Both the position numbers and the translations under genes were made by a program. A stretch of DNA of 64,000 nucleotides. Source: Clostridia bacterium (GTDB lineage Bacteria > Bacillota > Clostridia > TANB77 > CAG-508). Below are positions 18,692 to 59,300 of this stretch, piece after piece. The notes under the pieces were generated by a model that had not been told where the DNA came from, ran no database searches, and was given only the letters and a program-made list of their open reading frames with translations. Positions within the stretch are counted from its first letter, which is position 1. Every line of letters begins with the position of its first letter. Where the stretch lies: the NCBI GenBank assembly GCA_017511265.1, contig JAFWKV010000017.1:7312-71311 (forward strand). The letters are read 5' to 3'.

Positions 18692-18752
18692 ATATTTGTA
18701 CTTGACAGCAGGAATATGTGAGTATAAAATATAATTGAAAAGAGGGATACAT

Positions 18753-37297: not shown

Positions 37298-37528
37298 ATA
37301 AAATACAATACATTTTTACATCGAATTCGTTTACATGAAGAATTTTTTGTCATTTTCATAGACAAATACATATATAAGAGAATAAAAAATTTGTATTTTA
37401 AAAACTTTTATGATACAATTTCTAATATAAGATGTAAAATTAAGTACAAAAGCAGACATTAAAAATTATCAATGTCTGCTTTTACATTCATATATGTACA
37501 ACAAAAGCAGAGGAGAAATTTTAAAACT

Positions 37529-38245
37529 ATGAAAAAAACAAGAAAAGTTATATTTATTATATTAGAGATTATATTTGTACTTTTGACTATATATTCGTTA
37601 TATAACATATATCAATGGTATACAGAAAACAGAAAAACAAGTGAAATCTTACAAAGCATTTCAAATAGCATTACTGTTGATGAAGATAACAAAACAGTTG
37701 TGGATTTTGATAGATTAGAAGAAAATAATTCTGATATAATTGCATACATAAAAGTAAATGGAACTGAAATAAATTATCCTGTGGTTAAAGCAGATGATAA
37801 TGATTATTATTTAAGTCATAGCTTAGACAAGACAGTAAATGGAGCTGGATGGATATTTGCTGATTATAGAAATAAGCTAGATGGAACTGATAAAAACTTA
37901 ATAATATATGGACATAACCGAAGAGATGGGAGCATGTTTGGCACATTAAAAAATATTTTAAACAAAGAATGGTATGAAGATAAAAATAATCTTAAAATTT
38001 CTTTACATACAGAAAATGAAGAATCAACTTATGAGGTATTTTCTGTGTATCAATTAGAAGAAGAAGATTATTATTTACAAACATCTTTTAAGGATAAAGA
38101 ATTTTTAAGCTTTGTAAATACACTACAAGGAAGAAGTATAAAAAATTTTAATGTAGAAGTATTAGATCATGACTCTATTCTTACTTTGTCTACTTGTGCT
38201 AATGATAATAGATACAGAGTCGTATTGCACGCAAAAAAAATATAA
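37529..38245 (+). CDS. srtB: Class B sortase
   Basis: N-terminal TM anchor, catalytic TLSTC motif and conserved His. Lies immediately upstream of the dockerin gene cluster. Confidence 0.7.
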   Translation: MKKTRKVIFIILEIIFVLLTIYSLYNIYQWYTENRKTSEILQSISNSITVDEDNKTVVDFDRLEENNSDIIAYIKVNGTEINYPVVKADDNDYYLSHSLDKTVNGAGWIFADYRNKLDGTDKNLIIYGHNRRDGSMFGTLKNILNKEWYEDKNNLKISLHTENEESTYEVFSVYQLEEEDYYLQTSFKDKEFLSFVNTLQGRSIKNFNVEVLDHDSILTLSTCANDNRYRVVLHAKKI

Positions 38246-41300: not shown

Positions 41301-41573
41301 ATAGTTGCAACATCTACAAATGGAAAAGAAGACAAATGCACTGTAACAGTTGCAGAAAACACAGATAAACCACAAACACTAAAAGGCGATGTAAATGGAA
41401 ACGGAATAGTAGAGTTAACAGATTATTCAATGATTTTAAAACATGTAAAAGGAATAAAATTACTTGAAGGAGAACAATTAAAAAGAGCAGATGTAAACGG
41501 TAATGGAACAATTGAACTTACAGACTACTCAATGGTATTAAAACATGTTAAAGGAATAAAATTATTATTTTAA
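38351..41573 (+). pseudogene. G1. Secreted protein: unknown N-domain + CAP + Big_2 repeats + internal dockerin + C-terminal dockerin. Frameshifted paralog of G3.
   Basis: ORFs 38351-39778 and 39786-41573 align end-to-end with the 1080-aa G3. Relative to the G3 segment AVRTGTSWGD, the run ggaaAcatca has an extra A, shifting the frame. Confidence 0.75.
41376..41570 (+). repeat. Dockerin-coding DNA repeat (G1 3' end)
   Basis: About 195-bp segment, roughly 85-95 % identical among eight genes. Encodes GDVNGNGIVELTDYSMILKHVKGIKLL twice. Confidence 0.7.
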
Positions 41574-44050: not shown

Positions 44051-44083
44051 AGTTGTCAATGGGGACGGTTCTAATTGACAACT
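44051..44083. repeat. 33-bp palindromic element agttgtcaatggggacggttctaattgacaact between G2 and G3
   Basis: One mismatch relative to 23248-23280. Confidence 0.55.
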
Positions 44084-44101
44084 CATATGAAGGGATATAA
44101 A

Positions 44102-47100: not shown

Positions 47101-47317
47101 AAATATAGATAAACCACAAAAACTAAAAGGCGATGTAAATGGAAATGGAATAGTAGAGTTAACAGATTATTCAATGATTTTAAAACATGTAAAAGGAATT
47201 AAATTACTTGAAGGAGAGCAAAAAGAAAGAGCAGATGTAAACGAAAATGGTACAATTGAACTAACTGATTACTCAATGGTACTAAAACACGTAAAAGGAA
47301 TTAAATTATTATTTTAG
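44102..47317 (+). CDS. G3. Secreted protein: N-domain + CAP-like + Big_2 x3 + internal dockerin + C-terminal dockerin.
   Basis: Signal peptide. YGHRHHLL CAP motif. Big_2 (ITWSSSNSEYVSVNQYGKIKI; KLTWKSGDESIAKVDETGKVTAIAKGSTEITA). Internal GDMNRDGIFNALD...GDINGDGNLTSLD. C-terminal dockerin pair. Confidence 0.75.
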   Translation: MKNILKHIISILISNIILIQAFMPIVSYAEDSKIGADGLIMLNIKGTDRTVTKTTTIDEIKNWYAGEHIFETPSLYGGKAYSFYVGSNFDDYLYIETIADGTIFSYGSVDPSYKTNTYSFGDEYPYTERNVLYGCLLSDDGKIIGGVYYNKKAYLNGNTNKIKQAYKDAFEEEYCKENKIEKSEIGTEKDTGRQPEIIRNLSKHAILMYNGLIHYYNRDESFMQTDRDENGDTSFTTFDEFFDINNQFIEFKTTAFNYIDDMNYNSDYYYVLGAKSDCEIYNSYYIFNPLQMAGMARIQKNTNLSNRNIPVWTYNYNEKKLQGISFWKDCFKRIEKVELTQEQQERYKKLREYYAKGEEKLNKEEGMYKTLPYYDEPEKMVAGELLQSKKEGIRDYFNAIRAGCGLKPVQIGEQGFDIAQHMTTLLQYRFEKFGTGLSHHPDKPEGVSQEYFDIAVRTGTSWGDSLSFMARTANSEGMKQHINNMLFDDNKDYQYGHRHHLLTSFYSDFGYGITGFFASLQLKGANGDYAPCVAWPACNGVTMMESLGQRNFAWTIKFYELYYEILDSCKTEIKNLNTGKVYTFDKEEGDVDSRRLYQNLTFDDITYSFANKILLKEPEIKPMAGEVYEVTVKGIKNVKTGNIEDYTYRTAFVYGDSSKDIETPKSIDIEVDENLEKTSANTYTGKVGNEYKLNAIIDDLNAVDKKITWSSSNSEYVSVNQYGKIKINKEGKDAIITVSLDADKNIQKKIKITPEDFKIIIDNDKIKNNTYTFTSLNEILQLPVYLSNGEDTTFTYSSSNEKAIKINENGTATSVAGGFANITVTDTKSGKSVICDCYVQVPVILSDGSKAYVGDMNRDGIFNALDTANILDSYKNNPSTDQILVGDINGDGNLTSLDASKAIDLFKAGIFLPGKYYPITKVSLNKTELTLQPNKNETLKATIEPENTTDSPKLTWKSGDESIAKVDETGKVTAIAKGSTEITATSANGKEDKCNITVIENIDKPQKLKGDVNGNGIVELTDYSMILKHVKGIKLLEGEQKERADVNENGTIELTDYSMVLKHVKGIKLLF
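47120..47314 (+). repeat. Dockerin-coding DNA repeat (G3 3' end)
   Basis: Same repeat family. Confidence 0.7.
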
Positions 47318-47336
47318 ATAATTATTGGAGAAGAAT

Positions 47337-49511
47337 ATGGAAAAAATGAAAATTTTAAAAAATACATTAGCTATTTTATTTGTTTTAACAATAATAATAA
47401 ATTCAATAAATATACCTAAAACAATGGCATATACAGATCTTTTTATACAAGAAACAAGTGATAGACCCAATATTATAGAAGGGTCAGTTAGACTTAACCC
47501 TGAAACAAAAAGAGTTGCAGACTATGCTGGAAAAGATGCCTATTGTACTGGTGATGAAATAAAATTAGATGTATATATCGAGACACCTTATATAAATTTG
47601 AACACATTATCAGTAGGTGTAGGACTAAGCACAAATGCATTTGAATTTGTTGGTTATGAATTAGGAGAAGAAATACCAGAGGAATATAAAAATAAATTTT
47701 CAAAAAGAACAACTTATAATCAATTTATAGATTATTCCTCTGGAAAAGCTGATTACTCCCCAGATGGAGTTATACTTGAATATGAAGACTCAACAAATCG
47801 CATAAATAATTCTGGAGAATTCAAGGTTTTTACAGCAACATTCAAAGTAAAAAAAGCATTTATGGATTTAAAAACATTTAAAGACTATATAAAAAATGTT
47901 AAACCATGTACTACATATTCAAATTATAGAAATGATGAAAATAGACAGACTTGCTTTCCAAGAATGCAATTTAATAGTATCTATGACTTTTATGTAATGT
48001 CAGAGCCGAATCAAGTTTTAATTTATGATACAACAGCAAAAATGAAAATAAATGAATACAAAAAATTTAGTGTAAAAGTAAACCCAGAAACTGCATATCA
48101 AGGAGTTAAATGGAGTTCAAACAATCCAGATGTAGTCAGTGTTAGTGATGATGGAGTAGTCATTGCAAAAAAAGAAGGCAAAGCAACAATAACTGCAAAA
48201 GCAACTGCTAAAGAGAGTGTAAAATGCAATTACAATATTACAGTGAATGGTTTGTCTGATAATGTTTTGATTGAAAAAATAACAATTGATAATAAAGAAA
48301 AAATAAACAATTTATATCCTGGAAAATATGCAAATGTATTAGCTACTATTTTACCAGAAAATACTAATCAAGACAAAACAATTACATATTCTAGTTCAAA
48401 TCCAGAAGTAGCTACCATAGATAGTGATGGTACGATAAGAGCAATATATCCGGGAACAACAAAAATAACTGTAAAAACAACAAATGCAAAAACAGACGAA
48501 TATACAATAACTGTAAAGAATCCAGTTTCAAAAGTTAAGATAAAAAATAAAACAGCAGGAATTTATTTATATGATTATATGGGATATCCATTAGATATTG
48601 AAACAGAACCTGAAGGATATGAAGAATTAGTAAAACTTAGCTCATCAAATGAAAACGAAGTTATAGTAGATAATACATATAAAAGTATAAGAGCATTAGA
48701 TGTAGGAGACGTAAAAATAACAGCTCAAGTAGGAGACGTAAAAGATAGCTTTATGGTAGGAGCATTTACTAAAGAAATGCCGGCAACAAGTGTTAAAATA
48801 AATAATAAAATAGAAGAAATGGAATTAAAAGAGGAGATACAACTAGATGTTACGATAGAGCCTAACCCAGAAACTAATCCTGTAAGTAAACTAGCATTTA
48901 AAGTTGATGATACATCAATTGCAGATATTAGTACATTTGGAATTTTAAAAGCAAAAAAGGGAGGAAAAGTTAAAGTTACAGCATATTCAGCAACTACAGA
49001 GGATTCATTTATAGTAAATATTAATGCCGAAAGTGGTATAGAAGACTTTGAAATAATAGATTTTAATGGCAAAGTAGAAGAATATGCATCATCGTGTTAT
49101 GCAGTTAAAATAACACCTGAAAATGCTGATGGAAAAAATTTTTGGGAAGCAAGTAGTTCAAATCTGGATATACTTGATGCGTATAAATGGAATGATGATG
49201 AAATTGTAATCGATGGTATTTCTCCAGGAGAAGCAGATATAATAATAACTGCAGGAAGCGACTATAAAAAGATAATTCATGTAAAAGTTTTTGAATACGG
49301 AAGCCAAGATAATTACTTAAAAGGTGATGTAAATGGCAATGGAATAGTAGAACTAACAGATTATTCAATGATATTAAAACATGTAAAAGGAATAAAATTA
49401 CTTGAAGGAGAACAAAAAGAAAGAGCAGATGTAAATGGCAATGGCACAATAGAACTAACAGATTACTCAATGGTATTAAAACATGTAAAGGGAATTAAAT
49501 TATTGAATTAA
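47337..49511 (+). CDS. G4. Secreted protein: putative cohesin-like N-terminal module + multiple Big_2 + C-terminal dockerin. Candidate adaptor scaffoldin.
   Basis: After the signal peptide, a roughly 125-aa segment (GDEIKLDVYIETPYINLNTLSVGVGLSTNAFEFVGYELGEEI...GEFKVFTATFKVKKA) matches the cohesin beta-sandwich pattern, as I recall it from CipA-type cohesins (GDTV.V.V...YD...LE.V...G....DGVFA.I.FKVK). At least four Big_2 repeats follow, then the dockerin. Confidence 0.6.
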   Translation: MEKMKILKNTLAILFVLTIIINSINIPKTMAYTDLFIQETSDRPNIIEGSVRLNPETKRVADYAGKDAYCTGDEIKLDVYIETPYINLNTLSVGVGLSTNAFEFVGYELGEEIPEEYKNKFSKRTTYNQFIDYSSGKADYSPDGVILEYEDSTNRINNSGEFKVFTATFKVKKAFMDLKTFKDYIKNVKPCTTYSNYRNDENRQTCFPRMQFNSIYDFYVMSEPNQVLIYDTTAKMKINEYKKFSVKVNPETAYQGVKWSSNNPDVVSVSDDGVVIAKKEGKATITAKATAKESVKCNYNITVNGLSDNVLIEKITIDNKEKINNLYPGKYANVLATILPENTNQDKTITYSSSNPEVATIDSDGTIRAIYPGTTKITVKTTNAKTDEYTITVKNPVSKVKIKNKTAGIYLYDYMGYPLDIETEPEGYEELVKLSSSNENEVIVDNTYKSIRALDVGDVKITAQVGDVKDSFMVGAFTKEMPATSVKINNKIEEMELKEEIQLDVTIEPNPETNPVSKLAFKVDDTSIADISTFGILKAKKGGKVKVTAYSATTEDSFIVNINAESGIEDFEIIDFNGKVEEYASSCYAVKITPENADGKNFWEASSSNLDILDAYKWNDDEIVIDGISPGEADIIITAGSDYKKIIHVKVFEYGSQDNYLKGDVNGNGIVELTDYSMILKHVKGIKLLEGEQKERADVNGNGTIELTDYSMVLKHVKGIKLLN
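49314..49508 (+). repeat. Dockerin-coding DNA repeat (G4 3' end)
   Basis: Same repeat family. Confidence 0.7.
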
Positions 49512-49528: not shown

Positions 49529-51715
49529 ATGATAAAAGTAAAAAAGATACTATCTATACTTATGATAATTTCTATATTCATTTCTTTTGTATTACCAATT
49601 AATATAGCTAATGCAACATATACAATTAAACAATTGAGAAATATGTACCCTAGTAACATGCAATGGAATGATAAATACAAAGATGGATCATCTGAATGTG
49701 CTGGATTTGCATATTTAATTTATGATAGTTATTATGGAATAGGACCTAAAGAATATGGTAATAAAATAACAGATGTAGAACAAGCACAGCCTGGGGATAT
49801 TGTAAGATACAATGGCCATTCTGTATTTATTTTAACAAGAAATGGCGAGTCAACAACAGTAGTAGAATGTAACTATGATCGTCAAAATCATGTTAGATGG
49901 GATCAACCTAAAAATATGAGCGAATATAGAAATAGTTTTGAATATATTTATAAAGCACCATATATTTTAGAAACACCAGCGCCAGTAGTAGGAGTCCCTA
50001 CAAATGTGACTGTAGATACATCTAAATGGGTGCAAGCCAGTTGGAGTAAACCAAGTAACTGTTATGGATACTTATTGCAAGTTTATAATCAGGAGGGAAC
50101 TAAAGTCAAAGAAATAAAAATAAATAAAGCAGATACCACAGAACAAGCCATAGCAGGGTTAGAAACAGGTAATTATACACTTAGAGTATATGCTAAGGGA
50201 TTAGCTGGAGACTATTCTTCAGAATACGGAAGTGCAAAATTTTCATGCAAAAAGGAAGCAACTACATGTACTTTAAAAACAAAAAGTAATGTAATTGAAG
50301 TAGGACAAACCTACGAATATGAAGTAGTATTTCCAGAAGGGACTACAGCATATACAACACTTTTTATAGATTCGGAAGGAGATAAAAGTGTTTTAGAGAT
50401 TGAAAACCAAATGACAGTTAGAGGATTAAAAGAAGGAAATACAAAAGTATTTTTTATGATGAGAAGTAGTAATACAACTAGAACAGAGTCTTTTCAAATA
50501 AGTGTAATGAATCCATTAAGATTTAAAGATAACGAAGCAAAAACACTGAAAATAGGAGATAAATATCAATTAGAATTAAAATCAAAATCAGAAATTGCAA
50601 ATTCTGTTAAGTGGAACAGTTCGAATACAAGTGTAGCAACGGTTGACGAGCATGGTAATATAACAGCCTTAAAGGCAGGGAAAACGACAATAACTGCAAG
50701 TCAGAGTATGTGGACTACTGACCATAATGCATCTGGAACAACCCAAGATAAATGTACCATAACAGTAATAGACCCTAATATATATGCGACCAGTATAAGT
50801 TTAAACAAAACAGAAATGACATTAGAGAATATTGGAGATACAGATATTTTAAAAGCAACTATTTTACCAGAGAATACTACAAACAAAACAGTAACTTGGA
50901 CATCAAGTAATACAAATGTAGCAACAGTAGATGAAAACGGTAAAGTAAAAGTAAAAGGAGAAGGTAAGACGAAAATTACTGCAAAAACTTCAAATGGAAA
51001 GAGCACATATTGCATGGTTACTGTTCCAAAGCAAATTAAATGTAGTCTAAATTATACAGATTATACTTTTTCAAATTTGAACGAAACGATTCAAATACAA
51101 GCAAAATTAACAGATGGGTATAGCTCAACATTTAGTTACAAATCCACAAGGGACAGCATTTTAAAAGTTGATAAAAATGGAAAAGTAACTCCTGTAAAGG
51201 GTGGATTTGCAGATATTGTTGTAACAGACAATGTTTATGGAAAAAAGGCAACACTAAGTTGCTATGTACAAGTACCAGTAGTACTAAGTGATGGAAGTAA
51301 AGCGTATGTAGGAGATTTAAACAAAGATGGTTACTTTAATGCAACTGATGCTGCAATTATTTTAGATGGCTATAAAAATGGAGCTACATCAGATGATGTT
51401 TTGTTAGGAGACATAAATGGTGATGGATTTTTAAATGCTTCTGATAGTGCAATGTTACTAGATATATATAAGATGGGTCTTTTTTCGCCGGGAAAATATG
51501 ATAAAATAACAGAAAAAGTTGTAAAAGGTGACATTAATGGCAACGAAATAGTAGAACTAACAGACTATTCAATGATTTTAAAACATGTAAAGGGAATTAA
51601 ATTACTTGAAGGAGAACAAAAAGAAAGAGCAGATGTAAATGGCAATGGCACAATAGAACTAACAGATTATTCAATGGTACTAAAACATGTAAAAGGAATT
51701 AAATTATTGAATTAA
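49529..51715 (+). CDS. G5. Secreted papain-like (CHAP/NlpC-P60-type) peptidase + FN3-like + Big_2 + internal dockerin + C-terminal dockerin.
   Basis: SSECAGFAYLIY...GDIVRYNGHSVFIL...VVECNYD (Cys/His). Internal GDLNKDGYFNATD...GDINGDGFLNASD. C-terminal dockerin. Confidence 0.7.
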   Translation: MIKVKKILSILMIISIFISFVLPINIANATYTIKQLRNMYPSNMQWNDKYKDGSSECAGFAYLIYDSYYGIGPKEYGNKITDVEQAQPGDIVRYNGHSVFILTRNGESTTVVECNYDRQNHVRWDQPKNMSEYRNSFEYIYKAPYILETPAPVVGVPTNVTVDTSKWVQASWSKPSNCYGYLLQVYNQEGTKVKEIKINKADTTEQAIAGLETGNYTLRVYAKGLAGDYSSEYGSAKFSCKKEATTCTLKTKSNVIEVGQTYEYEVVFPEGTTAYTTLFIDSEGDKSVLEIENQMTVRGLKEGNTKVFFMMRSSNTTRTESFQISVMNPLRFKDNEAKTLKIGDKYQLELKSKSEIANSVKWNSSNTSVATVDEHGNITALKAGKTTITASQSMWTTDHNASGTTQDKCTITVIDPNIYATSISLNKTEMTLENIGDTDILKATILPENTTNKTVTWTSSNTNVATVDENGKVKVKGEGKTKITAKTSNGKSTYCMVTVPKQIKCSLNYTDYTFSNLNETIQIQAKLTDGYSSTFSYKSTRDSILKVDKNGKVTPVKGGFADIVVTDNVYGKKATLSCYVQVPVVLSDGSKAYVGDLNKDGYFNATDAAIILDGYKNGATSDDVLLGDINGDGFLNASDSAMLLDIYKMGLFSPGKYDKITEKVVKGDINGNEIVELTDYSMILKHVKGIKLLEGEQKERADVNGNGTIELTDYSMVLKHVKGIKLLN
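51518..51712 (+). repeat. Dockerin-coding DNA repeat (G5 3' end)
   Basis: Same repeat family. Confidence 0.7.
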
Positions 51716-51718
51716 ATA

Positions 51719-51758
51719 AAGAACAGACAATTAATTTAATCTAATTGTCTGTTCTTTA
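51719..51758 (+). terminator. Hairpin after G5
   Basis: aagaacagacaattaa...ttaattgtctgttctt. Confidence 0.45.
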
Positions 51759-51842
51759 TATGAAAAATTTTAGTATATAGATTGTAATTAAAAAAAGTTT
51801 ATGATAAAATTTGACCATAAAATAAAAGGAGGAAAATTTGTA

Positions 51843-54599
51843 ATGAAAAAATTTATTTCATTTATAATCATAGCAATATTATTGATACAAATGTATTTAC
51901 CAGTTTTATCATTTGCTACAAATGACAAAGTAGCATTAGACAATCACATAATAAAAGCTCTAAATGAAGGTAATTATGACAAAGATGAAGATGGAGAATT
52001 TACAATAGAGGAATTGTCAAAAGTATATTGGCTATATATAGACTGTGACGATGAATTTGTTGATTTAACAGGAATTGAAAACATGACCAATCTTTCAACA
52101 ATTGGATTTAATAGTGCAACATCTGATATGGACTTTACAGTATTAAGCCAATTACCATTAGACACATTATTTTTATCAGGATTTTTAAATGATATATCAT
52201 TTTTACAAAATCTTAATAGCTTGTCAGAGCTTTCAATATCATTTTACAATGAAGATGTACCATTAGACATACTTTCAACACTAACAACATTACAGAGTTT
52301 AAGAATAAGTTGCAATGGCGACATAGACATAGATAAATTAAACAACTTAACAGAATTAAAATATCTTACAATACAAGTTAGAGATGGAGTGGAAGTAACA
52401 CCAGAACTTATAGAAAATATAAATAGCTTAAAAGTTAAGAATTTTGCTTTAGAGGGAAAAGTTATTTACAATGTAGGAAATCTTGTATCAAATAAGCAAG
52501 CAGAAATCCCATTTGACAATATTCCATTAATAAAAGAAATGCAAAATCCAGGTAGTAAATTATACTATGAAGATTTTACATACAGCAAAAAAGATGATTT
52601 AATTACAGTAGATAATGCAAATAAAAAATTTCTTTTAAACCTAAAAAATGATGATACTAGAAGTGCAACAATTGAATTTGATAATGATATTACACTTGAA
52701 ATACAATGGAGTACTGCTGAAGATGATGAAGAACCAGAATTAAGCAACAAAATTAAAAATGCCTTACAAAAAGTAGGTGCAGACAAAGATAATAATGGTA
52801 AATATACAATAAGTGAATTAAAAAATGTACATTCTTTGGATTTAAACTTCTCATACAATGACAAATTTGACTTAACAGGAATTGAAAAGATAACAAATTT
52901 AGAGGGACTAACTATTACTGCAACATGTCCAGAAGTCGATTTATCACTATTAAAAGAGCTTCCAAATTTAACATATTTAAGTTTAAATGGAAATTTTAAT
53001 AGCATGGATTCTTTGGAGGGAGTAACAAATTTAGTTTCTTTAAGAATAAGTACATATAATAAAGATTTTTACTTTAATTTTGGGATAATAAACAGAATGA
53101 CAAATCTAGAAGCACTAGATATATACGGAATAAATGAAAATAATTTAAATAACATTAACAAATTAACAAATTTAAATAAATTAAAACGCCTAACTTTAAA
53201 CTTTGGAACAGAACCAAATGAATTAAAATTACCTAATTTAACAAATTTAGAAGAATTAAATTTGTCTTATATTAAAACAGATAATTTAAAAGATTTAGAA
53301 AAATTAACAAAATTAAGAAAATTATATATTCAACCAGTATTAAATAAAGATAATAGTGATGTTGACACAGAAGCTATAAAAAAATTAACAAATCTTGAAC
53401 AGCTAAAAATTACTTTAACAGATGATCCAAGTTGGGTTAATAGCTTATCAAAACTGAAACAAGTAGTTCTTGTAGCAAACACTACAGAAGATAACTATGA
53501 AAACCCACAAAAGATCCAACAAATGGTAAATGGAATTAATACTATTAAGGCAAATGTAAAATTAATAGGTCAATTTAACTTTAATATCGGGAAACTTACA
53601 GTTGGTGAAGAAAGAGATATAAATATAGGTGACAATATTTTAGTGAGAGAATTTAAAGACCCAAATAGCAAATTATATAGCCCTAATATCAATATAAATG
53701 TAGGTCATAACAATTTTATAAATGAATGGAATTATAATGAGAAAACTAAAATTGCACATTTAAAAGTTACTGAATTTGGTAATGATTATGCTTATGCTAG
53801 TGCATCAGAATATGAGGAAGATGGAATGTCGGTTAGCATAAATTTTAAATGGAAAGGCATCATAGATGATGACAAAGAAACAGAAATACCTATTAATGAT
53901 GAAAACTTAAAAAAAGCATTATTAGAAAAATATGATATAGATGGAAATAAAAAAATCACAAAACACGATTTATTAAATATTGACGAATTAGACCTAGACA
54001 ATAAAGGAATAGAAGATATTACAATTTTAGCATCTATGCCAAATCTTGAAAGAATTATTCTTCCAAATAATAAAATAAAAAATATTAAGGTAATTGAAGA
54101 ACTATCAAACAGCAGAAAAATACAATATATAAATTTAAAAAATAACGAAATTGAAGATATACAGCAAATAAAAGATGCAAATTTTGAAATTATTAATTTA
54201 AGTGAAAATTATATTGACTTTTCTGAAAATTCAGCAAATAGAAAAATAATAGTAGATTTTGGAATTGAAAGATGGGGAAATGAATATGATTTTTATTCAC
54301 AATATATGCCACTAAATCAAACAAGAGAAGAATTTATAAATGAAAATATAGATAATTATTTTAAAACCTATGCAGCAAATCAAAAAACGAAAACAACATA
54401 TAAAAAAGGCGACGTAAATGGAAACGGAATAGTAGAACTAACAGACTATTCAATGATTTTAAAACATGTAAAAGGAATAAAATTACTTGAAGGAGAGCAA
54501 AAAGAAAGAGCAGATGTAAATGGCAATGGCACAATAGAACTAACAGACTACTCAATGGTACTAAAGCATGTAAAAGGAATTAAACTATTAGATGAATAA
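51843..54599 (+). CDS. G6. Secreted leucine-rich-repeat (internalin-like) protein with C-terminal dockerin.
   Basis: Many LxxLxxLxLxxN repeats (LTNLEELNLSYIKTDNLKDLEKLTKLRKLYIQ) and a C-terminal dockerin pair. Confidence 0.7.
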   Translation: MKKFISFIIIAILLIQMYLPVLSFATNDKVALDNHIIKALNEGNYDKDEDGEFTIEELSKVYWLYIDCDDEFVDLTGIENMTNLSTIGFNSATSDMDFTVLSQLPLDTLFLSGFLNDISFLQNLNSLSELSISFYNEDVPLDILSTLTTLQSLRISCNGDIDIDKLNNLTELKYLTIQVRDGVEVTPELIENINSLKVKNFALEGKVIYNVGNLVSNKQAEIPFDNIPLIKEMQNPGSKLYYEDFTYSKKDDLITVDNANKKFLLNLKNDDTRSATIEFDNDITLEIQWSTAEDDEEPELSNKIKNALQKVGADKDNNGKYTISELKNVHSLDLNFSYNDKFDLTGIEKITNLEGLTITATCPEVDLSLLKELPNLTYLSLNGNFNSMDSLEGVTNLVSLRISTYNKDFYFNFGIINRMTNLEALDIYGINENNLNNINKLTNLNKLKRLTLNFGTEPNELKLPNLTNLEELNLSYIKTDNLKDLEKLTKLRKLYIQPVLNKDNSDVDTEAIKKLTNLEQLKITLTDDPSWVNSLSKLKQVVLVANTTEDNYENPQKIQQMVNGINTIKANVKLIGQFNFNIGKLTVGEERDINIGDNILVREFKDPNSKLYSPNININVGHNNFINEWNYNEKTKIAHLKVTEFGNDYAYASASEYEEDGMSVSINFKWKGIIDDDKETEIPINDENLKKALLEKYDIDGNKKITKHDLLNIDELDLDNKGIEDITILASMPNLERIILPNNKIKNIKVIEELSNSRKIQYINLKNNEIEDIQQIKDANFEIINLSENYIDFSENSANRKIIVDFGIERWGNEYDFYSQYMPLNQTREEFINENIDNYFKTYAANQKTKTTYKKGDVNGNGIVELTDYSMILKHVKGIKLLEGEQKERADVNGNGTIELTDYSMVLKHVKGIKLLDE
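54402..54596 (+). repeat. Dockerin-coding DNA repeat (G6 3' end)
   Basis: Same repeat family. Confidence 0.7.
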
Positions 54600-54632
54600 A
54601 TTAATACTCATTAATAAATAGAGGGAAAATAA

Positions 54633-56315
54633 ATGAAAAATAAAAATAGTATTTTAATAAAATTTATATTTACTTTTGTATTAATAGCAACAATAACTCA
54701 AACAAACTTTATCTATGCAACTGCTTTAGAAGATGAAGAAGTATATGAAAGTTTACTTACAACAAATGAGCAAGAAGAGACAGACACAGGAAACCTAACT
54801 TATGCCTCTGGAGTTACAGATGAAATGTGCAAGCCAGAATATTGGGCAAGCAAAATAAAAGATGCAAGTAAGGTATTAATGACAAAATCAGAAATATCAA
54901 AGCTAAACCAAGATATTATAGACGGAGCTGGAACAAATGTATTTGATTTAACTAAAATTAACGAAACAAAAACTCCATCTGAAAGAGCGCAAATATTAGC
55001 AAACAGTGAAGACATTCCAATAAGAAATCTCTATATAGATGGTACATTAATAGATAATAATACATATTTTACAAAACTAAAAAATGCAATGATAGAAACT
55101 GGGTTTGATGGTGATGAAACAGTTCAAAAGTATGCAGTAGCTGTAAAAAGAGCAGATGTAAGAGTATGGCCAACAAATGATGTAATAGGCTATAGTGAAA
55201 CAGATCCAGATGACGAAATTGAAAATTCAATATTAAATGTAAATGAACCATTTGTAATAAGAGGAAAATGTGAAGTAGATGGCAAAACATTTTATTGGGG
55301 AAATTCAAATGTTTGCCCAGGATGGGTAGATGCAGAAAATTTAGCAATATGTGAAAGCAAAGAAGAATGGATAGATGCATGGCAAGTAGATGTATCAGCA
55401 AAAGACTTTCTTGTTGTAACACAAGATAAAATTACGCTAGAGCCATCTCTTTCAGTGCCAGAAACATCTGAAATAAAATTGATGATAGGAACAACTTTAA
55501 AATTAGTTTCAAAAAGTGATTTGCCTAAAAACATAGGTGAAAGAGGAACTTGGAATAATTATGTTGTATATTTACCAACAAGAGATGAAGATGGAAACTA
55601 TGTTAAACAATATGCATTAATATCACAGCACTATGATGTAAGTATTGGATTTTTACCAATGACACAAGAAAACATATTAAAAGTTGCATTTTCATGTTTA
55701 GGAAACAGATATGGCTGGGGTGGAATGTTAGGTGCAATGGATTGCTCATTATATAGTAGAAGTATTTATGAATGCTTTGGCTTAGAACTACCTAGAAATA
55801 CTACTTGGCAGATGAAGGTACCAGGAAAAGTTACAGATGTTTCAGAGAAGAATGATGAAGAAAAAGAAGCATTTTTAGAAAAACAAGCAGTAGGAGCAAT
55901 TCTCTTCTTCCCAGGACATGCAATGGTCTATACTGGCAATGAAAATAACACAAGCTATACAATAAGCGCAACAGGATCACTTTCTGATAGTATTGGTGAG
56001 CTAAATGTACAAAGTATGTATTCAGTAATTTTAAATCCATTAACAACCAGAAGAAGAAATGGAAGAACATGGCTAAATAATTTAACTTATGTATTGAGCT
56101 TTGGTGAAAACAATGAAGAGCTAATAGGTGACGTAAATGGAAACGGAATAGTAGAACTAACAGACTATTCAATGATATTAAAACATGTAAAAGGAATAAA
56201 ATTACTTGAAGGAGAACAATTAGAAAGAGCTGATGTAAACCAAAATGGAAACATAGATTTAACAGATTATTCAATGGTATTAAAACATGTAAAGGGAATT
56301 AAATTATTGAATTAA
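54633..56315 (+). CDS. G7. Secreted SH3b + NlpC/P60 (YkfC-like gamma-D-Glu-diamino acid endopeptidase type) with C-terminal dockerin.
   Basis: NRYGWGGMLGAMDCSLYSRSIY...PGHAMVY (Cys-His NlpC/P60). Dockerin at the C-terminus. Confidence 0.75.
   Translation: MKNKNSILIKFIFTFVLIATITQTNFIYATALEDEEVYESLLTTNEQEETDTGNLTYASGVTDEMCKPEYWASKIKDASKVLMTKSEISKLNQDIIDGAGTNVFDLTKINETKTPSERAQILANSEDIPIRNLYIDGTLIDNNTYFTKLKNAMIETGFDGDETVQKYAVAVKRADVRVWPTNDVIGYSETDPDDEIENSILNVNEPFVIRGKCEVDGKTFYWGNSNVCPGWVDAENLAICESKEEWIDAWQVDVSAKDFLVVTQDKITLEPSLSVPETSEIKLMIGTTLKLVSKSDLPKNIGERGTWNNYVVYLPTRDEDGNYVKQYALISQHYDVSIGFLPMTQENILKVAFSCLGNRYGWGGMLGAMDCSLYSRSIYECFGLELPRNTTWQMKVPGKVTDVSEKNDEEKEAFLEKQAVGAILFFPGHAMVYTGNENNTSYTISATGSLSDSIGELNVQSMYSVILNPLTTRRRNGRTWLNNLTYVLSFGENNEELIGDVNGNGIVELTDYSMILKHVKGIKLLEGEQLERADVNQNGNIDLTDYSMVLKHVKGIKLLN
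56118..56312 (+). repeat. Dockerin-coding DNA repeat (G7 3' end)
   Basis: Same repeat family. Confidence 0.7.
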
Positions 56316-56332: not shown

Positions 56333-59300
56333 ATGAAGAAATTTATTTCAGTAATCGTTTTAGCTATTTTTCTAGCAAATTTAAACTTACCAATTGTATC
56401 ATTTGCTGTGGAAGAAACAGAACAAAGCACAGAAAAAAATGAGCAACAACAAGAGGCTGTTCAAGAAGAACAAAAACAGCAAGAAGAAAATAATATAATA
56501 GAAGTAGAAAGTGAGACAAATGAGCAAAATGAGATGCAAGCTAAGCAGGAAAAGGAAGAACAAGACGAGCAAGTAAAAGAAGAAATAAACAAAAGTGAAG
56601 AGACAAAAGGAACAGAAAATAAAGAAAATCAAGAAGAACAACAAGAACCAGAACGTAATTTAGATTCAGAAGACGAAATAGTAGAATTAGACGAAAAAGT
56701 AAAAAATGCTATTTCAACATATTATGATATAGATGATAATGATGATGGAGAATATTCTAAAAAAGAATTAGCAAATCCAAACTTAACTTCTATAAATATA
56801 GATTGCAATCAAGACACTGTAGATTTATCAGGAATTCAATACATGACATATTTAACTGGTATTGATATGTACAATATAAATGGAAGTATTGATTATACAT
56901 ATTTAGTAGAAACAGAAAACTTAAGAAGAATTTCATTGAATGGTAACGTAAAAAATATCAGTAAAATTGCTGAGATAAGCAATTTAGAAACACTTAGTAT
57001 AAATTTATATAATTACGAAGATGATTGTATAGAAGAATTATATAGTGATATTAGTAAAATGACAAATATAAACGAACTTGATTTGTTAAATTGTGATTGT
57101 AATAATTTAAAAGCACTAGAAAATTTAGATAACATAAAGAGGTTGTGGCTAGATCAAAAGTATGGCACAACTTTAGATATTGAAACTTTGTCAAAAATGA
57201 AAGCACTAGAATATTTAACAATACAATACAATGGTGAAAACATTGCATGGTTGGAAAATTTAAGTAATCTTAAAGATCTTAGGCTTCTAGGTTATAATGA
57301 CAGAGTTGAATTTACAGAAGATTTTTTTGAAGATATAAAAAAATTATCAATAGAAAGTGTTCATACTGATTCTCGCTCCATATTGAATTTTGGAAAAATA
57401 GAAATAGGACAAACCAAAGAATTAAAATTTGAAGATTTTCCAATATTGAAAGAGATGTGTGATGAAAATAGTATTTTTCATGAATCAGATTGGAATTTAA
57501 TTGTTTCAGAAAATCAAGAAGAAGGAACTAATACAGATTGTATTCATATAGATAATGAAAACCGCAAAATTTCTATAACACCAACAGAGGAAAGTCGAAA
57601 AGAAATTTATATAGATAAGAACAAATTTGCATGGGGACTAGGAAATCATTTTATTATAACTTGGGAAGAACCAGAGGATAATGAAATAGTAGAAATAAGT
57701 AGTGAATCTATAAAAAATGCATTAGAGAACAAATACATAGATAAGAATGGAGACGGAAAATATACAAAAGGTGAATTAGCAGATATAAACTTACAATCAA
57801 TTGCTATATTTATAAATGAAGACCAAATTGACTTATCACCATTAGAATATATGAAAAATTTGAACTATGTAGATATTAACCTCAATTATTACAACAACAG
57901 TAAAATAGATTTATCAGTATTAAAAAAATTAAATAAATTGGAATGGCTGAGTGTATTTAATTTAAAAGATGTAACATCTTTAAGTGTACTAACTAATATA
58001 AAAAAACTAAGCATAGAAACAACTAGCGAAAATTTTGAAGAAAAATTAAAAATAATAAGCAGACTAAGTAATCTTGAGTATTTATACATATATGATATAA
58101 ACACAGATGTTGATATAGATGAATTAACATCACTAAATAATCTAAAACAATTATCTTTAGATAGTTCAGGTAGTAATATTAAGATAAATTTAGATAATAT
58201 AGAAAAATTAAACAACTTGACTGAACTAAGTTTAAGAAATTTTAATTATGAGAATTTTAACAGCATAGAAAAACTTTCAAAATTAAAAAGCCTAACCCTA
58301 TCTACAAGATTTGATGAGAAATTAGATATTGATACAATATCTAAACTGAACAATTTAGAACAATTAAGTATAGAAGAATTTGTAGACGACGTAAATTGGC
58401 TTTCTGACTTAACAAATTTAAAATCTTTAACATTATATATAAAAAATAATCAAAAAGGTTTAGATGAAAAGTTTTTTAACGTAATAGATAGTTTGAATTT
58501 GGAAAATCTTAACATACAGGGGGATTATTCAATAAATCTTGGAGAATTAGAACCTGGTGTAATGACGGAATTTGACTTTGCTGATATACCACTATTAAAA
58601 AAAGCAATGGATCAAGAAAGTACATTTTATACTGAAAATTTAAGATTAGATGTTAACGAATACCAAGATAATAGAGTTGATAAAAACTGTATTCAAATAG
58701 ACAATGAAAATCATAAAATATATATAACAGCTCCAGAAGACCCAAAAGCAAAAAAACAAATTACTATTAGTCAAAATACGGGACAATTTTATAATATTAA
58801 ATTTACATGGTCTAACCCAGGTGATGATGAAATAATTGAAATAGACGATAAAATTGCTGAAGCTATAAAACAAAATAATTCTAATACTGATGAAAATGGA
58901 GATGGAAAATTTAGCAAAGGAGAGCTTGCTAATATAGAAAATTTATATATTAATTGTAATTCTAACAAAATTGACTTATCAGCCCTTGAATATATGATTA
59001 ATCTTGAATATCTTTCTATTTATAGTATGTCAGAAGGAACTGACCTATCACCGCTAATAAAATTGAAAGAACTAAAAAATCTTACTATATATGGCAATTT
59101 TAAAGACTTTAATCAAATTACAGAATTAACTAATCTAGAAACACTTAATATATATGTATACAATGGGTTAAATACGCTTGATGGATTAAATAAACTTAAT
59201 CACTTAAATAATCTTACTTTACAAGGATTTGATTGTAAAGATTTAAGTGGAATAGAAAATATACCAAATTTAAAACAGTTAAGCATAAGAATTGGAAATG

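What the first reader, a model, noticed from the sequence alone, without database searches (positions are those of the whole stretch)
49529..56315. Two peptidoglycan-peptidase-type enzymes (papain-like G5, SH3b-NlpC/P60 G7) delivered via dockerins
G7 has the classical NlpC/P60 catalytic core (Y-x-WGG...DCS...H) preceded by SH3b-like domains, as in YkfC-type gamma-D-glutamyl-L-diamino-acid endopeptidases. G5 has a Cys/His papain-like amidase domain (CAGFAYLIY..H..). Fusing cell-wall hydrolases to dockerins suggests they are targeted to a scaffold, either for the cell's own wall remodelling or for attacking competitors.
Basis: partly seen in the sequence, partly recalled or inferred. Interest (0 to 1): 0.6.

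Follow-up and report, generated by a model that had tools for sequence, protein, structure and literature searches.

The report
Wall-cutting enzymes docked on a surface anchor
Two secreted cysteine enzymes of the kinds that cut bacterial cell-wall peptides each carry a dockerin "plug", and the same gene cluster supplies the matching socket: a wall-anchored cohesin protein and a sortase. This is a cellulosome-style display system that carries wall-cutting and adhesin-like proteins instead of cellulases; a single close precedent exists in a rumen bacterium.

Summary
G5 (49529-51715) and G7 (54633-56315) are secreted proteins that end in Pfam-significant type I dockerins.

- **G7:** it is an NlpC/P60 peptidase whose closest solved relatives are the four-domain lysins DvLysin and PnpA, not the YkfC recycling enzymes. 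Its L-Ala/D-Glu pocket residues are conserved. The canonical third catalytic His is replaced by an invariant Ser.
- **G5:** its head matches no Pfam model itself. It belongs to a family of at least 621 proteins with an invariant Cys57, His97 and Asn115 and an acidic residue 113. This is a CHAP signature, and a high-confidence model best matches CHAP lysins.
The genes lie in a co-oriented cluster that opens with a sortase and holds about ten dockerin proteins. It ends 1.6 kb beyond the window with a single-cohesin protein carrying an SPKTG sorting signal. This layout recurs in other metagenomes.
- **A sister cluster** carries NlpC/P60, CHAP-like and M23 heads, all on dockerins.
- **Precedent:** Ruminococcus flavefaciens RflaF_05439, an NlpC/P60-like dockerin protein that binds the sortase-anchored ScaE cohesin.

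Whether the enzymes cut the producer's own wall or foreign walls is unresolved. Verdict: new variant of a known kind, moderate interest.

The parts
37472..38245 (+). Sortase gene that opens the cluster (257 aa)
   Evidence: Pfam Sortase PF04203, E 6e-16. Homologous sortases sit directly next to anchor homologues in L048 and L049.
38351..41573 (+). Split (frameshifted) paralogue of the 1080-aa gene: 38351-39778 plus 39786-41573. The second piece carries an internal and a C-terminal dockerin.
   Evidence: Translations. Nucleotide repeats D3 and D4 are 85-86% identical to 44179-44478 and 46814-47113. Pfam Dockerin_1 E 3.7e-19 with two stretches.
41602..44046 (+). 814-aa dockerin protein with a CAP/SCP-like region. 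The CAP assignment is by eye only.
   Evidence: Dockerin_1 E 8e-12. Sequence.
44075..47317 (+). 1080-aa protein with Big_2 domains and two dockerins
   Evidence: Big_2 E 2.4e-29; Dockerin_1 E 2.5e-16 with two stretches.
47325..49511 (+). 728-aa Big_2 and dockerin protein. Its N-terminal ~200 aa are unassigned.
   Evidence: The idea that the N-terminus is a cohesin was tested and not supported.
49529..51715 (+). G5: signal peptide, CHAP-like head, FN3-like domain, Big_2 domains and a tandem double dockerin
49613..49978 (+). G5 catalytic head (residues 29-150). Catalytic codons: Cys57 = 49697-49699, His97 = 49817-49819, Glu113/Asn115 = 49865-49873.
   Evidence: 621 relatives. Invariant C, GD, H and N. 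14 of 42 relatives match CHAP PF05257. AlphaFold2 model with pLDDT 95.8, with Cys at the N-terminus of the helix. Best fold matches are CHAP or NlpC/P60 lysins.
51296..51712 (+). G5 double dockerin: inner module about residues 593-652, outer module residues 666-723
   Evidence: Pfam reports two stretches. Residues 593-723 align to the C. thermocellum double dockerin 8x39 at E 6e-10. 8x39 is identified as that module only by matching its depositor label 'Serine protease' and its double-dockerin alignment to the S8-protease double dockerin dDoc_0689 described in review PMC12484212; no paper naming 8X39 was found.
51801..54599 (+). LRR and dockerin protein lying between G5 and G7
   Evidence: LRR_14 E 1.5e-15; Dockerin_1 E 1.6e-13.
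54633..56315 (+). G7: signal peptide, conserved N-terminal region, SH3b1-like domain, NlpC/P60 domain and dockerin
55218..55328 (+). G7 residues 196-232: core of an SH3b1-type domain
   Evidence: This stretch aligns to the PF12913 matches (27.5-28.3 bits, cut-off 27) in homologues P0066, P0076 and P0110.
55701..55946 (+). G7 NlpC/P60 domain as matched by Pfam (residues 357-438). Cys371 = 55743-55745, His429 = 55917-55919.
   Evidence: PF00877 at 34.9 bits. Motif-by-motif alignment to DvLysin. Family invariants.
56127..56291 (+). G7 C-terminal type I dockerin (residues 499-553)
   Evidence: PF00404 E 2.3e-11. Member of nucleotide repeat family D1.
56333..61651 (+). 1772-aa LRR and dockerin protein
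   Evidence: LRR_14 E 2e-29; Dockerin_1 E 9e-13.
61929..64000 (+). Start of a 1205-aa protein that runs off the window. It has an inner-type dockerin near its N-terminus, a weak CAP match and a C-terminal dockerin. The cohesin anchor gene follows at window-equivalent 65629-68472, outside the window.
   Evidence: Frame-1 translation. Full protein and anchor read from L002. Anchor: Cohesin PF00963 E 1.6e-8, 35.2 bits against a cut-off of 24.1; C-terminal SPKTGD, a hydrophobic stretch and RRKRNK.

Best explanation
G5 and G7 are Sec-exported cysteine hydrolases of the CHAP / NlpC-P60 superfamily, displayed on the producer's surface by a cohesin-dockerin plug and socket.

How it works, step by step (shown or inferred):
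1. The cluster encodes a sortase, about ten dockerin-tailed cargo proteins and one protein with an N-terminal cohesin and a C-terminal SPKTG sorting signal. This is shown, by domain matches and by gene order.
2. The sortase links the cohesin protein covalently to the wall. This is inferred from the sorting signal and from conserved sortase-anchor adjacency.
3. Each cargo protein binds the single cohesin through its near-identical, internally symmetrical C-terminal dockerin in a calcium-dependent way, so the cargoes compete for the same socket. This is inferred.
4. G7 cuts the gamma-D-Glu-diamino-acid bond of stem peptides that are still attached to glycan, which is lysin-type behaviour. This is inferred from conserved S2/S1 pocket residues and Asn389.
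5. G5 cuts an amide or peptide bond of peptidoglycan through Cys57, His97 and Asn115. This is inferred from the CHAP signature and the fold; the bond is unknown.

Which wall is cut is unresolved. I lean towards peptidoglycan outside the producer's own sacculus, meaning neighbouring cells or wall debris (about 45%), over the producer's own outer wall layers (about 35%).
For: Domains:
- Dockerins are present on all cluster proteins.
- G7's NlpC/P60 match is above threshold. Its best solved relatives are DvLysin at E 8e-19 and PnpA at E 8e-10.
- G7 Y360, W362, C371-S372, R388-N389-T390 and G428-H429 align with DvLysin Y322, W324, C333-S334, R350-N351-S352 and G391-H392. Those residues bind L-Ala and D-Glu (PMC4600125). 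They are invariant or nearly so in 38 homologues.
- In G5, C57, H97 and N115 are invariant, residue 113 is always E or D, and residue 56 is Q or E in 38 of 42. This mirrors Gln29-Cys30/His97/Asn115 of the CHAP lysin Ply2741, with the same 18-residue His-to-Asn spacing (PMC11740692).
- The G5 model has pLDDT 95.8. Its top fold matches are CHAP or NlpC/P60 lysins.

Scaffold:
- The anchor has Cohesin PF00963 at 35.2 bits against a cut-off of 24.1, plus an SPKTG signal. The sortase matches PF04203.
- An anchor orthologue follows dockerin genes in L047. More distant anchor homologues sit next to a sortase in L048 and L049.
- No + strand terminator-like site lies between 44000 and 63900.

Anchor swapping:
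- G7 homologues carry SLH, choline-binding, LysM, FN3 or dockerin tails.
- G5 relatives carry dockerin or ChW tails.
- So the dockerin occupies the slot of a surface-retention module.

Docking code:
- The nine dockerins of this genome are 83-97% identical to one another.
- G7 and its orthologue in L043 are 81% identical in the catalytic part but only 58% identical in the dockerin.

Lean towards foreign walls:
- The sister cluster L043 puts NlpC/P60, CHAP-like and M23 heads on dockerins, two of them with ricin-B lectin modules.
- PnpA attacks competitors' peptidoglycan (PMC7860986).
- The other cargoes are LRR and Ig-like proteins.
Against: - No activity, binding or localisation data exist.
- G7's third catalytic residue is not the canonical His, Asn or Gln; an invariant Ser445 is at the expected spot. 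The A2pm-binding residues of DvLysin (Trp411, Arg423) could not be aligned.
- G5 itself matches no Pfam model, and its fold matches are only marginal (E about 1e-3, TM 0.47-0.6).
- The partner of G5's inner dockerin is unknown.
- The cohesin-dockerin pairing rests on co-location only.
- No immunity gene is evident, and the G7 family is broadly conserved (about 50% identity across Clostridia). Both points fit a housekeeping autolysin as well as a weapon.
Confidence: 0.7

Rival explanations
1. G5 and G7 are ordinary autolysins that act on the producer's own wall (growth, cell separation, turnover of outer layers). In this lineage the cohesin-dockerin pair simply replaces the SLH, ChW, LysM or choline-binding anchors used elsewhere.
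For: - The G7 catalytic region is conserved at 45-57% identity across Lachnospiraceae, Pseudobutyrivibrio, Eubacteriaceae and Ruminococcaceae. Its tails there are typical own-wall anchors.
- G5 relatives swap the outer dockerin for ChW repeats.
- There is no immunity gene in the cluster.
- The cluster sits in an ordinary chromosomal context with uniform GC.
Against: - The enzyme is held at the tip of a 947-aa stalk rather than on wall polymers.
- G5's head lies about 450 residues of FN3-like, Ig-like and unassigned sequence away from its dockerins.
- Cargo content differs between closely related clusters (window versus L043).
- The sister cluster combines three lytic head types with lectin modules.
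Confidence: 0.35
2. The domains are peptidases with non-peptidoglycan substrates. Examples are processing of other complex components, cleavage of host or dietary peptides or gamma-glutamyl polymers, or nitrogen scavenging. Similar roles have been proposed for dockerin-borne proteases of cellulosomes.
For: - Review PMC12484212 reports such proposals for cellulosomal peptidases.
- The function of RflaF_05439 is still unknown (PMC3573020).
- G7 lacks the canonical third residue and recognisable A2pm-binding residues.
- CHAP-fold enzymes include the non-wall glutathionylspermidine amidase, which also appears among the matches.
Against: - G7 conserves every DvLysin residue that contacts L-Ala and D-Glu of the stem peptide.
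- The fold neighbours of G5 are overwhelmingly phage and bacterial lysins.
- An M23 peptidase accompanies the homologues in L043.
Confidence: 0.12
3. The dockerins do not dock on the cluster's cohesin. They bind another partner elsewhere in the genome or on other cells, or they act only as calcium-binding stabilising modules, and the gene neighbourhood is coincidental.
For: - Pairing was not tested.
- There is only one cohesin for about ten cargoes.
- A second (inner) dockerin type exists with no identified partner.
- Cross-species and promiscuous dockerin binding is known (PMC12484212).
Against: - The order dockerin genes, then cohesin/SPKTG anchor, plus a sortase, recurs in independent metagenome contigs at 66% and 41-42% anchor identity.
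- Dockerins are homogenised within a genome yet diverge faster than catalytic domains between genomes, as expected for co-evolution with one partner.
- There is a direct precedent in ScaE of R. flavefaciens.
Confidence: 0.15
4. One or both heads are catalytically dead binding modules (pseudo-enzymes) that serve as wall-peptide adhesins.
For: G7's third catalytic residue is non-canonical. The co-cargoes are adhesin-like.
Against: The Cys-His pairs are invariant in 38 and 42 homologues, and so are the oxyanion and substrate residues. A dead enzyme would not be expected to keep its nucleophile.
Confidence: 0.06

Closest known systems
Ruminococcus flavefaciens RflaF_05439 with the ScaE anchoring scaffoldin (Levy-Assaraf et al. 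2013, PMC3573020)
   Same: A papain-like NlpC/P60-superfamily module is fused to a dockerin that binds a single-cohesin scaffoldin anchored by a sortase. [quoted passage not shown]
   Different: - RflaF_05439 has two tandem, sequence-cryptic NlpC/P60-like modules with a Cys/His/Gln triad and an X-dockerin dyad. It belongs to a large cellulosome.
- Here the heads are a sequence-recognisable DvLysin-like C40 peptidase and a CHAP-like domain.
- No carbohydrate-active enzyme is in the cluster.
- The anchor signal is SPKTG.
- Sortase, cargoes and anchor form one self-contained cluster.
DvLysin (PDB 3M1U), PnpA (6SQX) and EcgA: four-domain c-clip-SH3b1-SH3b2-NlpC/P60 gamma-D-Glu-mDAP endopeptidases
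   Same: These are G7's best solved relatives. G7 shares the YGWG, DCS, PRN(S/T) and GH motifs that form the L-Ala and D-Glu subsites, has Asn at the lysin/recycling switch position, and has an SH3b1-type domain upstream.
   Different: - These are Gram-negative periplasmic or secreted enzymes without dockerins.
- The third catalytic residue is His in DvLysin and Asn415 in PnpA; the G7 family has an invariant Ser445 at the expected place.
- The A2pm-binding Trp411 and Arg423 are not alignable in G7.
- The c-clip domain is not detected by Pfam in G7.
YkfC / AvPCP peptidoglycan-recycling endopeptidases (PDB 3H41, 3NPF, 2HBW)
   Same: SH3b and NlpC/P60 architecture, and the gamma-D-Glu-diamino-acid bond as target.
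   Different: These act only on free stem peptides, using an Asp (PRD) and a Tyr from SH3b1. G7 has Asn389, and by a weak alignment Cys228, at these positions. Sequence similarity to 3H41 is marginal.
CHAP domains of phage and bacterial lysins (Pfam PF05257; for example Ly7917 5D74, Ply2741, PlyGRCS)
   Same: G5's head has the same fold class, with Cys at the N-terminus of the helix. It carries the (Q/E)-Cys...His...(E/D)-x-Asn signature, with the same 18-residue His-to-Asn spacing as Ply2741.
   Different: - G5 itself does not match the Pfam model; only a third of its relatives do.
- The Cys-to-His spacing is shorter (40 residues against 67).
- The domain is N-terminal in long Ig-rich surface proteins with dockerin or ChW tails.
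- Many relatives carry an extra Cys-rich insert before the catalytic Cys.
C. thermocellum S8-protease double dockerin dDoc_0689 (Chen et al. 2024), which I take to be PDB 8X39
   Same: G5 residues 593-723 align across both modules of PDB 8X39. As in G5, a peptidase carries the double dockerin, and dDoc_0689 was proposed to anchor its protease at the cell surface. The identification of 8X39 as dDoc_0689 is my inference from the depositor label 'Serine protease' and the description in that review.
   Different: The enzyme class differs (serine against cysteine). G5's two modules are two clearly different sequence types. In paralogues the same two modules are separated by a Big_2 domain.

Membership tests
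NlpC/P60 (Pfam PF00877, MEROPS C40) - G7 | Profile match above the curated threshold | tested here: met
   34.9 bits against a cut-off of 23, residues 357-438. All 38 homologues match.
NlpC/P60 (Pfam PF00877, MEROPS C40) - G7 | Catalytic Cys-His dyad with the nearby Tyr | tested here: met
   Y360, C371 and H429 align with DvLysin Y322, C333 and H392. They are invariant in 38 of 38 sequences.
NlpC/P60 (Pfam PF00877, MEROPS C40) - G7 | Third polar catalytic residue (His, Asn or Gln) | tested here: inconclusive
   The profile and PDB alignments stop before this position. An invariant Ser445 lies 16 residues after the His, and a conserved Asp452 lies 23 residues after it. No structure model was available for G7.
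DvLysin/PnpA-type four-domain lysins - G7 | S2/S1 subsite residues for L-Ala and D-Glu (Trp324, Arg350, Ser334, Ser352, Tyr322) | tested here: met
   G7 has W362, R388, S372, T390 and Y360, conserved in at least 34 of 38 homologues.
DvLysin/PnpA-type four-domain lysins - G7 | SH3b1 and SH3b2 domains upstream of the catalytic domain | tested here: inconclusive
   There is no Pfam match in G7 itself. PF12913 (SH3b1) matches 6 of 38 homologues, and those matches map to G7 residues 196-232. SH3b2 was not shown.
DvLysin/PnpA-type four-domain lysins - G7 | N-terminal c-clip (N_NLPC_P60) domain | tested here: inconclusive
   No Pfam match was found. G7 has a conserved region of about 110 residues (56-165) in the right place. 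It aligns only weakly to PnpA residues 19-219 (E 11).
DvLysin/PnpA-type four-domain lysins - G7 | A2pm-binding Trp411 and Arg423 in the beta4-beta5 hairpin | tested here: inconclusive
   This region is not alignable. The family has its own invariant residues R474 and W480.
YkfC-type recycling endopeptidases - G7 | Asp after the Pro-Arg motif, which binds the free N-terminal amine of L-Ala (BoYkfC Asp221) | tested here: not met
   G7 has Asn389, and 36 of 38 family members have Asn. This matches DvLysin Asn351.
YkfC-type recycling endopeptidases - G7 | Bulky Tyr from the SH3b1 distal loop that blocks the S3 site (BoYkfC Tyr80; Ala211 in DvLysin) | tested here: inconclusive
   The weak alignment places Cys228 opposite Ala211. 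The alignment is not significant on its own.
CHAP domain (Pfam PF05257) - G5 head | Profile match | tested here: not met
   G5 gives no CHAP match even at E up to 10. 14 of 42 relatives match, with a best E of 4.7e-8. G5 is therefore filed as CHAP-like, not as a PF05257 member.
CHAP domain (Pfam PF05257) - G5 head | Conserved Cys, His and Asn (or Glu) catalytic residues | tested here: met
   C57, H97 and N115 are invariant and residue 113 is always E or D, in 42 sequences. The His...E-x-N segment aligns to Ly7917.
CHAP domain (Pfam PF05257) - G5 head | Papain-like alpha+beta fold with Cys at the N-terminus of a helix | tested here: met
   The model has pLDDT 95.8. Cys is residue 29 of helix 28-41, and His starts strand 69-77. 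Foldseek's top matches are Ly7917, a S. saprophyticus CHAP domain and MepS, with probability 0.99-1.0 but E only about 1e-3. BFVD matches are lysins.
Type I dockerin (PF00404) - G5 and G7 | Profile match and two calcium-binding loops (D-x-N-x-N/D-G...D), each followed by a helix | tested here: met
   E 4.8e-16 and 2.3e-11. The loops DVNGNGIVELTD and DVNGNGTIELTD can be read directly.
Sortase-anchored cohesin-dockerin surface display (ScaE-like) | A cohesin-bearing protein with a cell-wall sorting signal, and a sortase | tested here: met
   Cohesin PF00963 at 35.2 bits against a cut-off of 24.1; SPKTGD, a hydrophobic stretch and RRKRNK. Sortase PF04203. The arrangement is conserved in L047-L049.
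Sortase-anchored cohesin-dockerin surface display (ScaE-like) | Physical, calcium-dependent cohesin-dockerin binding | not testable with these tools
   No complex prediction or binding assay was available.

The most novel reading that the evidence does not exclude
The cluster encodes a cellulosome-like lytic machine. A sortase-anchored stalk carries one cohesin socket, and the cell plugs interchangeable wall-degrading heads into it, together with LRR/Ig adhesins. The heads are NlpC/P60 and CHAP-like here, plus M23 with ricin-B lectins in the sister cluster. The purpose would be to hold and lyse neighbouring bacteria on contact, with a species-specific dockerin code that keeps each species' arsenal on its own cells.
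Probability: 0.25. Interest if true: 0.75.

Novelty: new variant of a known kind. Interest (0 to 1): 0.45.

Why it matters
Cohesin-dockerin assembly is understood almost entirely as a way to organise plant-fibre-degrading enzymes. The dockerin-borne peptidases and LRR proteins of ruminococci have been catalogued, but their function is unknown.

This locus is a compact, self-contained version: sortase, cargoes and a one-cohesin anchor, with no carbohydrate-active enzyme. Its cargo includes recognisable peptidoglycan hydrolase families. That makes the open question directly testable with a handful of recombinant proteins: what do non-cellulosomal dockerin proteins do on the cell surface?

If the enzymes target other cells, this would be a new delivery route for bacteriolytic enzymes in gut Firmicutes. 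It would also be a natural modular display scaffold for lysins.

Separately, the G5 head defines a family of several hundred secreted CHAP-like domains that current Pfam models largely miss.

Tried and rejected
- **Word-index search for the G5 head:** it found nothing. Only the exhaustive HMMER search found the family.
- **Pfam and NCBIfam on the G5 head:** no match.
- **Single-sequence AlphaFold2 of G5 residues 29-238:** unusable, pLDDT 50.7. It used one of the two prediction slots, so no model could be made for G7.
- **N-terminal ~200 aa of the 47325-49511 protein as a second cohesin (possible partner of the inner dockerin):** no Pfam, PDB or BLASTP support. Rejected for lack of evidence.
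- **Aligning G7's C-terminal 82 residues to solved structures to place the third catalytic residue:** nothing relevant was found.
- **phmmer with this genome's dockerin against other loci:** it missed the different dockerin types of rumen homologues. A regular expression for the calcium-binding loops was used instead.
- **Phage or mobile-element origin:** considered and rejected. Composition is uniform, the neighbours are housekeeping and sporulation genes, and there are no phage genes.
- **YkfC membership:** rejected on the Asn389 test.

Full report
**What is at the coordinates**

The interval 49529-56315 holds three co-oriented ORFs:
- G5, 49529-51715, 728 aa.
- An LRR-dockerin protein, 51801-54599.
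- G7, 54633-56315, 560 aa.

Both G5 and G7 begin with a typical hydrophobic signal sequence, read directly from the translations. Both end in a Pfam-significant type I dockerin: PF00404 at E 4.8e-16 with two stretches for G5, and E 2.3e-11 for G7. The window is a 25-32% GC chromosomal segment of an uncultured spore-forming member of Clostridia. It carries PNPase, formate-tetrahydrofolate ligase, a germination protease and AddA-like genes. The exact proteins occur on ENA metagenome scaffolds and in an NCBI MAG labelled 'Clostridia bacterium'.

**G7**

Sequence matches:
- Pfam NlpC/P60 matches residues 357-438 at 34.9 bits against a cut-off of 23.
- The protein has hundreds of homologues sharing 45-80% identity over about 90% of the non-dockerin part.
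- In 38 aligned homologues Tyr360, Trp362, Asp370-Cys371, Arg388, Gln393 and His429 are invariant.

Solved relatives:
- The best are DvLysin (3m1u; E 8e-19 with the family profile) and PnpA (6sqx; E 8e-10).
- YkfC (3h41) matches only 41 residues at E 6e-4.
- The HMMER alignments pair G7 Y360-G-W362-G, D-C371-S372, P-R388-N389-T390 and G428-H429 with DvLysin Y322GWG, RDC333S, PR350NS and GH392.
- Xu et al. (PMC4600125) show that these residues form the L-Ala (S2) and D-Glu (S1) subsites. They also show that Asn351 and Ala211 (Asp and Tyr in the YkfC enzymes) decide whether the enzyme accepts glycan-linked stems, as a lysin does, or only free peptides, as a recycling enzyme does.
- G7 and 36 of 38 relatives have the lysin-type Asn.

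An SH3b1-type domain is supported indirectly. PF12913 matches 6 of 38 homologues above threshold, and these matches map to G7 residues 196-232.

Two caveats apply:
- The canonical third catalytic His is not found. An invariant Ser445 lies 16 residues after His429, and Asp452 is also conserved.
- The prime-side residues that bind A2pm in DvLysin could not be aligned.

G7 is therefore a DvLysin-like gamma-D-Glu-diamino-acid endopeptidase candidate with an unresolved third residue and unresolved P1' specificity. It is not a YkfC-type enzyme.

**G5**

The N-terminal head (residues 29-150) has no Pfam, NCBIfam or PDB sequence match and no word-sharing homologues. Exhaustive HMMER finds 621 relatives, 53 of them at E below 1e-10.

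In 42 aligned domains:
- Cys57, Gly89-Asp90, His97 and Asn115 are invariant.
- Residue 113 is always Glu or Asp.
- Residue 56 is Gln or Glu in 38 of 42.

Links to CHAP:
- Fourteen of the 42 match Pfam CHAP, with a best E of 4.7e-8.
- The family profile aligns its His...E-x-N segment to the CHAP lysin Ly7917.
- The mutationally proven triad of the related CHAP lysin Ply2741 is Gln29-Cys30/His97/Asn115, with the same 18-residue His-to-Asn spacing (PMC11740692).

Structure:
- With the alignment, AlphaFold2 gives a model of pLDDT 95.8. The Cys sits at the N-terminus of the main helix and the His and Asn lie on consecutive strands.
- Foldseek's best PDB matches are Ly7917, a bacterial peptidase (7v6t), a staphylococcal CHAP domain, MepS, a C. 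innocuum NlpC/P60 domain and phage endolysins. Probabilities are 0.98-1.0, E values are only 1e-3 to 1e-1 and TM scores are 0.47-0.59.
- In the viral library the matches are lysins and CHAP proteins.

I therefore call the head a divergent CHAP-like cysteine hydrolase. It fails formal PF05257 membership but carries the defining residues and fold. The bond it cuts is unknown.

The rest of G5 comprises an FN3-like domain, Big_2 domains and a tandem double dockerin (residues 593-652 and 666-723). The double dockerin aligns across both modules of PDB entry 8x39, deposited as 'Serine protease'. I take this to be the S8-protease double dockerin dDoc_0689 of C. thermocellum described in review PMC12484212. 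That match is inferred from the label and the alignment; no paper naming 8X39 was found.

**The surroundings change the picture**

From 38351 to the window's end, every gene is on the + strand and ends in the same dockerin. The genes are:
- A frameshifted gene, 38351-41573.
- Proteins of 814, 1080 and 728 aa.
- G5, an LRR protein, G7 and a 1772-aa LRR protein.
- A 1205-aa protein that runs off the window.

The 3' ends form an eight-copy nucleotide repeat, 81-88% identical over 218 nt. The nine dockerins are 83-97% identical in protein sequence. Each has two nearly identical halves, which is the hallmark of dual-binding-mode type I dockerins (established knowledge).

A sortase gene (37472-38245; PF04203, E 6e-16) opens the cluster.

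Reading the same metagenome scaffold beyond the window shows the closing gene at window-equivalent 65629-68472. Its 947-aa product has:
- A signal peptide.
- A domain matching Pfam Cohesin end to end (positions 1-138 of 139, 35.2 bits against a cut-off of 24.1).
- Three Big_2 domains and repeated Cys-rich RYYR-CCHC units.
- A C-terminal SPKTGD motif, a hydrophobic segment and RRKRNK.

That C-terminus is a sorting signal of the (S/P)PXTG type, known from clostridial sortases (established knowledge). No + strand terminator-like site lies between 44000 and 63900. This is weak support for co-transcription.

**Conservation elsewhere**

- An anchor orthologue (66% identity, cohesin plus the same SPKTG signal) directly follows dockerin genes on a JGI contig, L047.
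- More distant anchor homologues (41-42% identity) are immediately followed by a homologous sortase (L048, L049).
- In L049 the anchor has an N-terminal domain that looks like a typical cohesin by eye, although it did not match the window anchor's cohesin at E 1e-4. It also has an NSPKTGD signal, and it is preceded by dockerin proteins of another dockerin type.
- An 81%-identical G7 orthologue lies in a sister cluster (L043 and L044). That cluster is downstream of an aldo-keto reductase gene, as the window's cluster more loosely is. It encodes NlpC/P60-Doc, an 806-aa dockerin protein resembling the window's 814-aa protein, a G5-family CHAP-like head with ricin-B lectin and Doc, an M23 peptidase on the identical ricin-B-Doc body, and LRR-Doc.
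- Within that cluster the dockerins are 84-90% identical to each other but only about 52% identical to those of the window. The G7 orthologues are 81% identical in the catalytic part and 58% identical in the dockerin. Homogenisation within a genome, together with accelerated divergence between genomes, is what co-evolution with one cognate cohesin predicts.

**Anchor swapping**

- Homologues of the G7 catalytic region end in dockerins, FN3, SLH, choline-binding repeats or LysM.
- Among the ten closest cluster representatives of G5, eight have dockerins and three carry ChW repeats at the C-terminus; two of those three keep an inner dockerin.
- The outer dockerin therefore occupies the slot of a cell-surface retention module.

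**Mechanism**

- Shown: the domain content, the conserved catalytic and substrate residues, and the cluster architecture with its recurrence.
- Inferred: sortase-mediated wall attachment of the cohesin protein; calcium-dependent docking of one cargo at a time; and hydrolysis of stem-peptide bonds by G7 (after D-iso-Glu) and by G5 (bond unknown).
- Unresolved: the target.
  - Favouring foreign peptidoglycan: the stalk geometry, the adhesin-like co-cargo, the three-enzyme lytic set with lectins in the sister cluster, rapid cargo turnover between related clusters, and the competitor-directed activity of PnpA (PMC7860986).
  - Favouring the cell's own wall: the broad conservation of the G7 family with own-wall anchors, and the absence of any immunity gene.
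  - I put these at roughly 45% and 35%, with the remainder on non-wall substrates or other outcomes.

**Comparison with what is known**

- The closest precedent is R. flavefaciens RflaF_05439. It is an NlpC/P60-like protein whose dockerin binds the sortase-anchored single-cohesin ScaE, and its function is still unknown (PMC3573020).
- That organism also has peptidase-, transglutaminase-like- and LRR-dockerin genes in head-to-tail arrays (PMC2930009).
- A literature search for dockerin together with NlpC returned six papers; only this one concerns a dockerin-borne NlpC/P60-like protein.
- The present locus differs in four ways. It is self-contained (sortase, cargoes, anchor). It has no carbohydrate-active enzyme. 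It carries sequence-recognisable peptidoglycan hydrolase families. It uses an SPKTG signal.
- I rate it a new variant of a known kind, of moderate interest.

Noticed in passing
window 38351-39778 and 39786-41573: These two adjacent ORFs together are a frameshifted copy of the 1080-aa gene at 44075-47317. The nucleotide repeats are 85-86% identical, and the reading frame breaks near '...RLGNIMG'. This is either a pseudogene or an assembly error.
   Followed up: partly
window 41356-41573, 43829-44046, 47100-47317, 49294-49511, 51498-51715, 54379-54596, 56098-56315, 61434-61651: The dockerin-coding 3' ends form an eight-copy repeat, 81-88% identical at the DNA level and 83-97% at the protein level. 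Between related genomes the dockerin diverges faster (58%) than the catalytic part of the same protein (81%). This suggests concerted evolution with a species-specific docking code.
   Followed up: partly
window 40768-40985, 46512-46729, 51162-51379; also about 62250-62430: A second, different dockerin type (YVGD(M/L)N(R/K)DG...GDINGDG...) sits inside four cluster proteins. It is retained in G5 relatives that have swapped the outer dockerin for ChW repeats. Its cohesin partner was not found.
   Followed up: partly
window 47325-47950 (N-terminal ~200 aa of the 728-aa protein): This is an unassigned domain. By eye it resembles a cohesin (GDEIKLDVYIE...), but it gave no Pfam, PDB or BLASTP support.
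   Followed up: yes
L002 19297-22140 (window-equivalent 65629-68472): The stalk of the cohesin anchor contains about five repeats with paired CxxC motifs (Pfam RYYR-CCHC, E 3e-10). A Cys-rich, possibly zinc-binding repeat is unusual in an extracellular, wall-anchored protein of an anaerobe.
   Followed up: no
L043 14264-15847 and 15864-17429: Two neighbouring genes encode a G5-family CHAP-like head and an M23 peptidase head on an otherwise almost identical body (unknown domain, ricin-B lectin, dockerin). This looks like a recent swap of catalytic heads.
   Followed up: partly
window 55965-55967 (G7 Ser445): Across the whole G7 family the position where NlpC/P60 enzymes have their third catalytic His, Asn or Gln appears to hold an invariant Ser, followed by Asp or Ala. 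The neighbouring Asp452 is also conserved.
   Followed up: partly
window 41602-44046, 44075-47317, 61929-64000: Several dockerin cargoes contain a region with a 'GHR..(L/I)L' motif. In the 1205-aa protein this region weakly matches the CAP/SCP family (E 6e-4). A separate SH3_3 and CAP protein (17939-18691) and a polysaccharide deacetylase (18735-19727) lie upstream in the window.
   Followed up: no
window 30945-32043 compared with L043 8753-9877: The window's 219-aa ORF at 31384-32043 matches only the C-terminal half of an aldo-keto reductase plus a ferredoxin domain. The sister locus has an intact 374-aa gene directly upstream of its dockerin cluster. The window gene may be split. The shared neighbour suggests the two clusters occupy related chromosomal sites.
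   Followed up: no
P0141, P0148, P0151 and other relatives of the G5 head: Many relatives carry a Cys- and His-rich segment just before the catalytic Cys (for example PCTHHGNCSYSGSCGCNSF), which G5 lacks. It may be a metal-binding or disulphide-rich insert.
   Followed up: no
window 7931-9796: A 621-aa ORF with no Pfam match at E 1e-3.
   Followed up: no
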